Below the pieces are notes generated by a model. It was not told the origin of the DNA and did no database searches. It worked only from the letters and a program-made list of their open reading frames with translations. Below, piece after piece: positions 36,683-40,843 of a stretch of 64,000 nucleotides of DNA (position 1 is the stretch's first letter; every line of letters starts with the position of its first letter). A program made the position numbers and the translations under genes. Source of the DNA: Vicinamibacterales bacterium. Lineage in GTDB: Bacteria > Acidobacteriota > Vicinamibacteria > Vicinamibacterales > UBA2999. The stretch covers positions 43,658-107,657 of the forward strand of contig JBFWXO010000006.1 of the NCBI GenBank assembly GCA_050187355.1. Direction: 5' to 3'.

Positions 36683-37141
36683 TCAGTGCTTGACGAAGAC
36701 CGTCTTCGCGCCGCCCTTGGTGAAGGCCACCGTGTTGTACGGGTCCTTTTGGCCGCCCTGCTCCATGCCCGGCGAGCCCATCGGCATCCCGGGCACGGCG
36801 ATGCCCGTGATCTTCGGCCGTTCCTTCAGCATCTTCTGGATGTCGGCGGCGGGCACGTGGCCTTCCACCGTGTATCCCTCGACCTTGGCCGTGTGGCACG
36901 ACCGCAGATCGTCGGTGACGCCTGACTCGGCCGCGACCTGGTCGAGCCGCTGATCGCTCACGTCGTGGGCTTCCACCTGGAAGCCTGCCGCCCGGAGATG
37001 TTGCACCCAGGCGCCGCAGCAGCCTCAAGTGGGTGATTTGTAGACGACCACCTTTGTCGCGGCCTGCCTCGCCTGCACGGCGAGACCGAATCCGACGGAC
37101 GCGACGGCGGCCAGGGCGATGGCAAGGGCTCTGGTGCGCAT
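36683..37141 (-). CDS. DUF411/CopG-like exported metal-binding protein with in-frame TGA at codon 39 (candidate selenoprotein, or pseudogene)
   Basis: Continuous frame MRTRALAIALAAVASVGFGLAVQARQAATKVVVYKSPT-TGA-GCCGAWVQHLRAAGF...SCHTAKVEGYTVEGHVPA...GIAVPGMPMGSPGME; the family motif is YKSPTCGCC. Confidence 0.85.
36985..37022 (-). other. Candidate bacterial SECIS-like hairpin 3' of the UGA
   Basis: Hand-folded mRNA after UGA: CUGCU/GGCAG lower stem, 5-nt bulge, GCCUGG/CCGGGC upper stem, 11-nt loop starting with G, 18 nt from the UGA. Confidence 0.5.
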
Positions 37142-40648: not shown

Positions 40649-40843
40649 ATGGCCGGTTACAAGTGCGAGAAGTGCGGGATGAGCATCGGGTCGATGACGT
40701 GCGGGCAGTGCGGACAGGAGCTGGTGCACTCGACGATCACGAAGGCCGATGGCTCGTCGGTCCACGTCTCCCAGTGCCCGGGCGGGCACGGCAAGGTGAA
40801 GTCGCCGATGTGCTGCGGGCAGGACATGACCTGCTCCATCTGA
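40649..40843 (+). CDS. 64-aa Cys-rich metal-binding miniprotein
   Basis: MAGYKCEKCGMSIGSMTCGQCGQEL...SQCPGGHG...PMCCGQDMTCSI; GGAGAG SD-like sequence upstream; forms the last 64 codons of a track ORF. Confidence 0.75.
   Translation: MAGYKCEKCGMSIGSMTCGQCGQELVHSTITKADGSSVHVSQCPGGHGKVKSPMCCGQDMTCSI

What the first reader, a model, noticed from the sequence alone, without database searches (positions are those of the whole stretch)
36683..37141. Candidate new selenoprotein: DUF411/CopG-like protein with UGCC in place of CGCC and a SECIS-like hairpin
Seen: the ORF track splits this gene, but signal peptide and domain are in one frame interrupted only by TGA (37025-37027), exactly at the first Cys of YKSPT-C-GCC. 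Both halves look intact. Right after the UGA the mRNA can form a stem-loop with a 6-bp upper stem and a G-initiated loop 18 nt downstream, which fits the bacterial SECIS model. Codons around the site (AAA TCA CCC ACT; CAA CAT) are unusually A/T-ending for this genome, suggesting RNA-level constraint. Established: DUF411/CopG are periplasmic Cys-ligated copper proteins; I do not recall this family among described selenoproteins, which needs checking. Inference: an exported Sec-containing copper/redox protein.
Basis: partly seen in the sequence, partly recalled or inferred. Interest (0 to 1): 0.88.

Follow-up and report, generated by a model that had tools for sequence, protein, structure and literature searches.

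The report
Selenocysteine form of copper protein CopG
The apparent stop codon inside this small exported copper-protein gene (CopG/DUF411) is almost certainly read as selenocysteine, because dozens of related soil bacteria keep the same TGA at the same metal-binding cysteine position in an otherwise intact gene, and published selenoprotein catalogues do not list this family.

Summary
On the minus strand, 37141..36683 is one 152-codon frame, broken only by TGA at 37027..37025. That TGA is codon 39, the first Cys of the CxCC motif of a DUF411/CopG protein (PF04214, 96.8 bits; PDB 6WIS, E 6e-32).

This is not a pseudogene or an assembly error:
- The same TGA occurs in 17 of 18 species genomes of the genus.
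- It occurs in 25 of 53 DUF411 hits in a 401-genome Acidobacteriota sample.
- It occurs in 73 of 80 fetched metagenome contigs.
- Both halves are under purifying selection.
- Independent landfill, wastewater and sediment assemblies carry it.

The genome has selA, selB, tRNA-Sec and a second selenoprotein gene, an FDH-like gene. selD is missing from the assembly. A selD-bearing 2.8-kb contig of matching depth exists in the source runs.

The RNA after the UGA folds much better in Sec forms than in Cys forms (-13.9 vs -8.2 kcal/mol). The codons around the UGA are rare ones. A second hairpin, 43-60 nt downstream, is invariant at synonymous sites.

A 2026 catalogue of 119 selenoprotein families lacks PF04214. 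Earlier notes of this scan reached the same reading many times. Selenium incorporation and a copper-ligand role are inferred, not shown.

The parts
36683..37141 (-). Whole gene: 152 codons plus a TGA stop. Sec-containing DUF411/CopG-like exported protein.
   Evidence: frame. (PF04214, 96.8 bits against a cut-off of 27). (6WIS, E 6e-32). (thioredoxin-like model; best Foldseek hits are CopG 6WJE/6WIS).
37070..37141 (-). Signal peptide, about 24 residues: MRTR, a hydrophobic core, then AVQA|RQ. There is no lipobox Cys, so it is a soluble periplasmic protein rather than a lipoprotein.
   Evidence: By inspection of the translation; no signal-peptide predictor was available. The same layout is seen in all orthologues.
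37025..37027 (-). In-frame TGA, codon 39, read as selenocysteine.
   Evidence: Same position in 39 further distinct genomic sequences (40 counting this window's) and in 73 of 80 metagenome contigs. It aligns to the first Cys of CxCC. No variant at this site in independent assemblies.
37016..37027 (-). U-G-C-C motif, the counterpart of the CxCC copper-cluster motif of CopG. It sits at the N-terminal end of helix 1 of the thioredoxin-like fold.
   Evidence: alignment to 6WIS. (strand 30-35, helix 40-51). PMC7558416 for the role of CxCC.
37028..37039 (-). Rare-codon run AAA TCA CCC ACT just before the UGA. Pro is at -2 in 40 of 40 Sec forms and Thr at -1 in 39 of 40. ACT is used in 18 of 19 sequences of the close set.
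36985..37019 (-). Hairpin 1, the candidate SECIS (nt 9-43 after the U of UGA). Core stem nt 15-22 with 31/33-39 (37013..36989). Apical loop nt 23-30, beginning 19 nt after the UGA.
   Evidence: fold. (Sec forms -13.9 against Cys forms -8.2 kcal/mol in nt 10-42). (bSECIS criteria).
36968..36985 (-). Hairpin 2: GGCUUCC-AGGU-GGAAGCC (nt 43-60 after the U of UGA; codons G-F-Q-V-E-A). It is invariant at the nucleotide level in the close relatives. Its role is unknown; it may be part of the recoding signal.
36764..36907 (-). PF04214 (DUF411) core, residues 79-126: SCHT, GHVPA and PGMPMGSPGME.

Best explanation
This is an intact gene for a small protein exported by a Sec-type signal peptide. The protein is a thioredoxin-fold CopG/DUF411 protein. 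UGA codon 39 is recoded to selenocysteine by the bacterial SelA/SelB/tRNA-Sec system.

The recoding is directed by an RNA hairpin in the coding sequence whose apical loop begins about 19 nt after the UGA. A second, sequence-invariant hairpin at nt 43-60 may contribute.

The product carries U-G-C-C in place of the C-x-C-C motif, which in Pseudomonas CopG holds a tetranuclear copper cluster. Sec is therefore most likely a copper ligand and/or the redox-active nucleophile of a periplasmic copper-handling protein.

Shown here: the conserved TGA, selection on both halves, the RNA-level constraint, the machinery (except selD), and family and fold membership.

Inferred: selenium insertion, export, and copper binding or redox function.

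The confidence of 0.88 is for a working selenoprotein gene; for the copper-site role of Sec it is about 0.5-0.6.
For: 1. The TGA sits at the same alignment column in every case examined.
- 17 of 18 species genomes of the genus have it; one has TGC.
- 25 of 53 DUF411 hits in 401 Acidobacteriota genomes carry exactly one TGA. All 23 that I read place it at this site, in families f1, f10, f16, f22 and f66.
- More than 120 metagenome stretches match the motif. Of the 80 fetched, 73 have a full DUF411 domain in frame after the TGA, giving 72 distinct proteins.

2. Purifying selection acts on both sides. pN/pS is 0.14 in the strand before the UGA and 0.31 after it, with pS of 0.33-0.44.

3. Natural Sec/Cys pairs exist. 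A Cys subclade is nested inside the Sec clade, and well-supported branches force at least 3 Sec/Cys changes.

4. TGA is still a stop codon here, because the gene itself ends in TGA.

5. The machinery is present: selA at 420 bits, selB at 294 to 323 bits and tRNA-Sec. A second selenoprotein gene has SCNRT-U-HAPSV and a GGUCU loop at nt 22-26.

6. RNA structure differs between Sec and Cys forms.
- In nt 10-42 after the codon, mean MFE is -13.9 in 40 Sec forms and -8.2 in 57 Cys forms at equal GC (Mann-Whitney p 1e-10).
- A control window shows no difference.
- The result holds for the two largest Sec clades (mean MFE -16.3 and -12.7, z about -3). The third clade is only slightly below the Cys mean (-9.6, z -0.9). 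The four Cys forms nested in the f1 clade fold less well (-7.9 to -13.5).
- Distant lineages show 6-7 bp stems with GGUCN loops at nt 21-25.
- The window's own hairpin meets the four published bSECIS constraints.

7. There is a cluster of codons that are rare in this genome. Codons +14 to +19 show zero synonymous variation; they are the only such run in the gene.

8. Independent assemblies from three studies carry the TGA, and metatranscriptome contigs cover the site.

9. CopG membership: PF04214, 6WIS at E 6e-32, Foldseek top hits 6WJE/6WIS.
Against: - selD was not found in this assembly by HMM or by tblastn with the closest relative's SelD. Only a co-abundant contig, 83% identical to the relative's selD, hints at it.
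- The window's hairpin alone is no better than dinucleotide shuffles (z -0.88).
- There is no column-wise compensatory covariation within the family clade. The stem is kept by register shifts instead. Only one compensatory pair is seen in the distant set.
- In most genus orthologues the MFE loop lacks a G in its first two positions.
- No copper genes lie next to the gene, and the neighbourhood is not conserved.
- There are no protein-level data of any kind.
Confidence: 0.88

Rival explanations
1. Pseudogene or assembly error: a recent nonsense mutation or a miscalled base truncates a normal Cys-type CopG gene.
For: Gene callers split the gene, and databases hold only fragments. One orthologue (G005) does carry a frameshift.
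Against: The same TGA occurs at the same codon in 40 distinct genomic sequences and in 73 metagenome contigs. pN/pS is 0.14-0.31 on both sides. Independent assemblies agree. The TGA co-occurs with a stabilised downstream hairpin.
Confidence: 0.02
2. UGA is recoded, but not to selenocysteine in this organism. With selD missing, tRNA-Sec could be charged with Cys (thiophosphate route) or stay Ser, or the UGA could be read through by a near-cognate tRNA. The product would then be an ordinary Cys, Ser or Trp CopG.
For: selD is absent from a 99.4%-complete assembly, and so is the 9.5-kb region that holds it in the closest relative.
Against: selA, selB, tRNA-Sec and an FDH-type selenoprotein gene are intact. 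13 of the 15 other genus genomes searched have selD. In the two source runs a selD-bearing 2.8-kb contig has depth 12.6 and 9.37, against 11.8 and 8.9 for the window's contig. That fits an unbinned short contig.
Confidence: 0.05
3. The gene is a genuine selenoprotein, but Sec is not a metal ligand. The U-x-C-C site would work as a selenol/thiol redox couple of a thioredoxin-like oxidoreductase unrelated to copper.
For: Sec sits at the N-terminus of helix 1, the CxxC position of thioredoxin-fold enzymes. There is a weak glutaredoxin match at residues 31-65. No copper genes are nearby.
Against: All other CopG cluster features are kept, namely the second and third Cys, SCHT, GHVPA and the Met-rich PGMPxGSPGME loop. 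The only characterised member binds a Cu4 cluster through CxCC and is itself proposed to be redox-active on copper (PMC7558416). The two roles are therefore not exclusive.
Confidence: 0.2

Closest known systems
CopG / CutG (DUF411, PF04214), e.g. Pseudomonas aeruginosa CopG, PDB 6WIS/6WJE
   Same: - PF04214 at 96.8 bits; phmmer E 6e-32 over 121 residues; Foldseek identity 42-45%.
- Thioredoxin-like fold and an export signal.
- x-C-C, SCHT, GHVPA and the PGMPxGSPGME Met loop are all kept.
   Different: - The first Cys of CxCC is encoded by UGA (Sec).
- The coding RNA after it carries a recoding hairpin.
- The gene stands alone rather than beside copA, cus or cueO.
- It is not a lipoprotein.
Bacterial selenoprotein genes with an in-ORF SECIS (E. 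coli fdhF/fdnG type; bSECIS consensus model in PMC13188914)
   Same: - UGA aligned to Cys in homologues.
- The hairpin loop starts 19 nt after the UGA, within the 16-37 nt range.
- G is among the first two loop bases, and MFE is below -7.5.
- Distant relatives have GGUC loops like fdhF and like this genome's own FDH gene.
   Different: - Within this genus the loop is large (8-9 nt) and mostly lacks the G.
- The stem register shifts between species.
- A second invariant AGGU-loop hairpin lies 46 nt downstream, outside the model's spacing range.
Catalogued metal-related selenoproteins (CopZ-family 2Fe-2S form, SO_0444 Cu/Zn efflux UxC, MerT-like, MbdU, UGC-type TlpA; Table 1 of PMC13188914)
   Same: Sec replaces a Cys in a metal-binding or thioredoxin-like motif.
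   Different: These are different Pfam or NCBIfam families. None is PF04214, and none has a UxCC motif. This protein matches none of their models.

Membership tests
Bacterial selenoprotein gene (SelB-dependent UGA recoding) | In-frame UGA aligned with Cys in homologues (Sec/Cys pair) | tested here: met
   TGA falls in the column of the first Cys of CxCC in all 40 distinct Sec forms. One species of the genus has TGC.
Bacterial selenoprotein gene (SelB-dependent UGA recoding) | Reading frame intact and under purifying selection on both sides of the UGA | tested here: met
   pN/pS is 0.14 before the UGA and 0.31 after it, with pS 0.33-0.44.
Bacterial selenoprotein gene (SelB-dependent UGA recoding) | SECIS hairpin by the published bSECIS criteria: loop of 3-9 nt, stem of 4-16 bp, G in loop position 1-2, 16-37 nt from the UGA, MFE <= -7.5 | tested here: met
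   The loop is UGCAACAU (8 nt) and starts 19 nt after the UGA. The stem has 8 bp with one bulge, and MFE is -17.7.

Caveats: the single-sequence z is only -0.88, and most genus orthologues fail the G rule in their MFE fold.
Bacterial selenoprotein gene (SelB-dependent UGA recoding) | selA, selB and tRNA-Sec in the genome | tested here: met
Bacterial selenoprotein gene (SelB-dependent UGA recoding) | selD (selenophosphate synthetase) in the genome | tested here: inconclusive
   Not in the assembly. Present in 13 of the 15 other genus genomes searched. A co-abundant selD contig is in the source runs.
Bacterial selenoprotein gene (SelB-dependent UGA recoding) | Selenium actually incorporated at the UGA | not testable with these tools
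   Needs 75Se labelling or mass spectrometry.
CopG / DUF411 (PF04214) | Match to PF04214 above the gathering score | tested here: met
   96.8 bits against 27.
CopG / DUF411 (PF04214) | CxCC motif plus the adjacent conserved Met residues | tested here: met
   The motif is U-G-C-C, with the first position encoded by UGA, and PGMPMGSPGME is conserved. The motif's role is taken from PMC7558416.
CopG / DUF411 (PF04214) | Thioredoxin-like fold | tested here: met
   pLDDT 86-94 for residues 31-70 and 73-87 up to residue 110; the Met loop is of low confidence; 6WJE/6WIS at E 8e-9 with TM 0.56-0.68, followed by thioredoxins.
CopG / DUF411 (PF04214) | Periplasmic location (export signal) | tested here: inconclusive
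   An n-h-c signal with AVQA|RQ is visible and is conserved. No predictor was run.
CopG / DUF411 (PF04214) | Binds a tetranuclear copper cluster; contributes to copper resistance | not testable with these tools
   Biochemistry is needed. There is no linkage to copper genes here.
Catalogued prokaryotic selenoprotein families (119 in PMC13188914) | Family or Pfam accession listed in the catalogue | tested here: not met
   no PF04214, DUF411, CopG or UxCC; no paper holds both DUF411 and selenoprotein; the BSepDB main text has none; no NCBIfam selenoprotein model matches.

The most novel reading that the evidence does not exclude
Sec-type CopG is an uncatalogued, widespread selenoprotein family of soil and sediment bacteria. 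In it, selenolate replaces a thiolate ligand of a multinuclear copper cluster in the periplasm.

In this particular family of Vicinamibacterales the recoding signal is bipartite. A structure-only hairpin close to the UGA acts as a spacer. An invariant AGGU-loop hairpin 46 nt downstream, outside the accepted 16-37 nt window, is the SelB-binding element.
Probability: 0.2. Interest if true: 0.8.

Novelty: new variant of a known kind. Interest (0 to 1): 0.62.

Why it matters
1. It adds a selenoprotein family that the 2026 catalogue of 119 families does not list. NCBI's selenoprotein models miss it too, so gene callers split these genes at the TGA and the collections searched here hold the two checked examples only as 97-107-residue fragments.

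2. It places selenium at the copper-cluster motif of CopG. That would be a natural Cu-selenolate site, and it gives a direct handle (U versus C variants, Se K-edge spectroscopy) on the still unclear chemistry of CopG.

3. About half of the DUF411 genes in the Acidobacteriota sample are the Sec form. This links selenium availability to copper handling in abundant soil bacteria.

4. The hairpin varies in register while a second hairpin is invariant. That makes the family a useful test set for bacterial SECIS models, which currently fail on atypical elements.

Tried and rejected
- Rfam scan of the locus at E up to 10 found no SECIS or other relevant family.
- RNAalifold on 20 close sequences predicted only hairpin 2, with no covariation.
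- Fixed-register pair counts gave no compensatory changes in the family clade and one in the distant set. Classical covariation therefore does not prove hairpin 1.
- The search for selD in the genome gave only ThiL and other AIR-synthase relatives. This used TIGR00476, tblastn with the closest relative's SelD, and blastn with 9.5 kb around that relative's selD.
- Pfam scan of the neighbours found an amino-acid permease, a sortilin/BNR protein and a response regulator-HD protein, but no copper genes.
- Synteny is kept only in the closest relative, and in part in one more. A look at ORFs in five other loci by eye showed nothing copper-related.
- The CopG structure paper (PMC7415965) is not held, so cluster details rest on a review.
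- BSepDB supplements are not held.
- Global TGA reassignment is rejected, because the gene ends in TGA.

Full report
**The observation**

On the minus strand, ATG at 37141 opens a frame that ends at TGA 36685..36683. Its only interruption is TGA at 37027..37025.

Read through, it gives a 152-residue protein. The N-terminus looks like a signal peptide: MRTR, a hydrophobic core, then AVQA|RQ. A short strand KVVVYKSPT follows, then U-G-C-C, then a complete DUF411 domain.
- Pfam PF04214 matches at 96.8 bits against a cut-off of 27.
- phmmer finds CopG of PDB 6WIS/6WJE at E 6e-32. The TGA aligns to the first Cys of its CGCC.
- An AlphaFold model puts codon 39 at the N-terminal end of helix 1 of a thioredoxin-like fold.
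- The best Foldseek matches are the CopG structures, followed by thioredoxins.

Gene callers split the gene. The big protein collection holds only a 97-residue piece for this window and a 107-residue piece for a relative.

**Is the TGA real and conserved?**

Assemblies agree on it.
- Logan contigs of the two landfill runs that match the window have no variant there.
- Independent wastewater and sediment assemblies also carry it.
- Metatranscriptome contigs of a close strain cover the site.

The genus keeps it. In whole-genome searches, 17 of 18 species representatives of the genus have an orthologue with exactly one internal stop, a TGA. One species has TGC, and one genome lacks the gene. MAG titles place the genus in Vicinamibacterales, Acidobacteriota. 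In every case the TGA is at the same codon, in the context P-T-U-G-C-C.

The phylum keeps it too. In an even sample of 401 Acidobacteriota genomes, 51 have DUF411. Of 53 hits, 25 carry one TGA, and all those I read have it at this codon, in at least five families.

Metagenomes are full of it. Of the 80 fetched, 73 have a full DUF411 domain in frame after the TGA, giving 72 distinct proteins. The other 7 have short downstream frames and lie close to contig ends.

**Selection and phylogeny**

Across 19 close Sec orthologues, pN/pS is 0.14 for the nine codons before the UGA and 0.31 for the domain after it. Synonymous divergence is 0.33-0.44. Both halves are therefore maintained.

A tree of 97 distinct sequences needs at least 7 Sec/Cys changes, of which well-supported branches force 3. 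A small Cys subclade is nested inside this window's Sec clade. That is the usual picture for Sec/Cys pairs.

The gene's own terminator is TGA, so TGA is not reassigned genome-wide. This is the only DUF411 gene in the genome.

**Machinery**

- selA: 420 bits, open frame.
- selB: 294 bits, 323 with its C-terminal piece.
- tRNA-Sec with anticodon TCA is present.
- A molybdopterin oxidoreductase on contig 12 has TGA in the classic SCNRT-U-HAPSV context, followed by a stem with a GGUCU loop at nt 22-26. The organism therefore has at least one other selenoprotein gene.

selD is the gap.
- The best TIGR00476 match is ThiL.
- tblastn with SelD of the closest relative finds only paralogues. That relative is 92% identical in DNA at the DUF411 locus.
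- 13 of the 15 other genus genomes searched have selD, most with their own Sec codon. The two without are only 74-76% complete.
- In the two source runs, a 2801-nt contig ends inside a selD gene and is 83% identical to the relative's. Its depth is 12.6 and 9.37, against 11.8 and 8.9 for the window's contig.

I read this as a short contig that was not binned. It is not proven.

**The recoding signal: hairpin 1**

In this window, nt 15-22 after the U of UGA pair with nt 31 and 33-39. The 8-nt loop UGCAACAU starts 19 nt after the UGA, and MFE is -17.7 kcal/mol for nt 4-45.

That meets the four published bSECIS constraints: loop of 3-9 nt, stem of 4-16 bp, G in loop position 1-2, 16-37 nt spacing, and MFE <= -7.5 (PMC13188914). 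Alone it is not better than shuffled sequence of this GC-rich composition (z -0.88).

The comparative evidence is stronger.
- In nt 10-42, 40 distinct Sec forms fold to a mean of -13.9 kcal/mol (z -2.5). 57 Cys forms of equal GC fold to -8.2 (z -0.2). Mann-Whitney p is 1e-10, and a control window shows no difference.
- The difference holds in two of the three Sec clades separately (z about -3); the third is only slightly below the Cys mean (-9.6, z -0.9). The four Cys forms nested in this clade fold less well.
- Distant lineages have compact 6-7 bp stems with GGUCN loops at nt 21-25, like fdhF and like this genome's own FDH gene.

Within the family, the stem is kept in different registers rather than by column-wise compensation. 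Classical covariation counts are therefore null, with one compensatory pair in the distant set.

The codons around the site are rare in this genome: ACT 1.2%, TCA 1.7%, AAA 3%, CAA 3%, GCA 2.4%, CAT 12% and GAA 16%. ACT before the UGA is kept in 18 of 19 sequences of the close set.

**An unexpected extra: hairpin 2**

Codons +14 to +19 (GGC TTC CAG GTG GAA GCC) form a 7-bp hairpin with an AGGU loop at nt 43-60.

They show no synonymous variation in 19 sequences. Among 56 amino-acid-invariant degenerate columns, only 13 have a single codon. Six of those 13 are this run, the only run of three or more.

The nearest Cys forms use GAG instead of GAA. One Sec form changes Gln to Arg in the loop but keeps the stem.

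The loop starts 46 nt after the UGA, beyond the usual range. Its role is open. It could be a second part of the recoding signal, or the SelB site itself with hairpin 1 acting as a spacer.

**Function**

CopG proteins are periplasmic. They contribute to copper resistance under anaerobic conditions. They bind a tetranuclear copper cluster through CxCC and two nearby Met residues, and are proposed to oxidise Cu(I) and pass copper to cuproproteins (review PMC7558416).

All those residues are kept here except that the first Cys is Sec. The most likely role of Sec is as a cluster ligand and/or the redox-active nucleophile.

This is inference. No copper genes are adjacent: the neighbours are an amino-acid permease, convergent, and a sortilin/BNR protein, divergent. 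The neighbourhood is not conserved in the genus.

**Novelty**

- No paper in the library holds both DUF411 and selenoprotein.
- Papers holding both CopG and selenocysteine are unrelated to this question.
- Table 1 of the 2026 review, with 119 families and subfamilies, has no PF04214, DUF411, CopG or UxCC entry.
- The BSepDB paper does not mention the family.
- No NCBIfam selenoprotein model matches.

Earlier AI notes of this scan describe the same Sec-CopG form in at least 20 other genomes. They agree with this reading, but they are not independent evidence. I re-derived the conservation and the catalogue check myself.

**Verdict**

This is a genuine Sec/Cys family variant of a known protein family, decoded by a known mechanism. 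It is not yet catalogued and is systematically mis-annotated. The RNA signal has an interesting open question.

My confidence that the gene is a working selenoprotein gene is about 0.9. My confidence that Sec acts at a copper site is about 0.5-0.6.

Noticed in passing
window 36968..36985 (-): A second hairpin, GGCUUCC-AGGU-GGAAGCC, lies 43-60 nt after the UGA. It is nucleotide-invariant in 19 orthologues and is the only run of single-codon columns in the gene. Its loop lies outside the 16-37 nt SECIS window. The nearest Cys forms use GAG instead of GAA.
   Followed up: partly
own genome G000, contig C12 about 125221-125796 (-), locus L135: An FDH-like molybdopterin oxidoreductase has an in-frame TGA in SCNRT-U-HAPSV, followed by a stem with a GGUCU loop at nt 22-26. 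It is a second selenoprotein gene in this genome.
   Followed up: partly
own genome G000 (whole assembly); L092:4252-5169 in relative G014: selD is missing from this 99.4%-complete assembly, and so is the whole 9.5-kb region that holds it in the closest relative. A 2801-nt contig with a selD gene and matching depth is in both source runs.
   Followed up: partly
L088-L092 (selD of relatives): SelD in this order is itself a selenoprotein (SCAG-U-ASK). Two hairpins follow its UGA, and the second has a CAGGUG or CACGUG top that resembles hairpin 2 of the CopG gene.
   Followed up: no
L034 (G005:C31:277013-277478): The orthologue in one genus member keeps the TGA but has a frameshift about 75 codons later. 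This is either an assembly error or a real pseudogene.
   Followed up: no
window 40649..40843 (+): A small 64-residue Cys-rich ORF (MAGYKCEKCG...CGQCG...MCCGQDMTCSI) has two CxxC pairs and a CC. It lies just after the sortilin/BNR gene and was not characterised.
   Followed up: no
L050, L052 (records CAYUAX010000017.1, CAZCEL010000039.1): Two MAG records titled 'uncultured Bifidobacteriaceae' carry DUF411 genes that sit inside the Acidobacteriota clade. The bins are probably mislabelled or contaminated.
   Followed up: no
window 37028..37033 (-) and orthologues: In Sec forms the two residues before Sec are fixed: Pro in 40 of 40 and Thr in 39 of 40. Cys forms vary widely at these positions. 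This may reflect a context requirement for Sec insertion or for the Sec site.
   Followed up: partly
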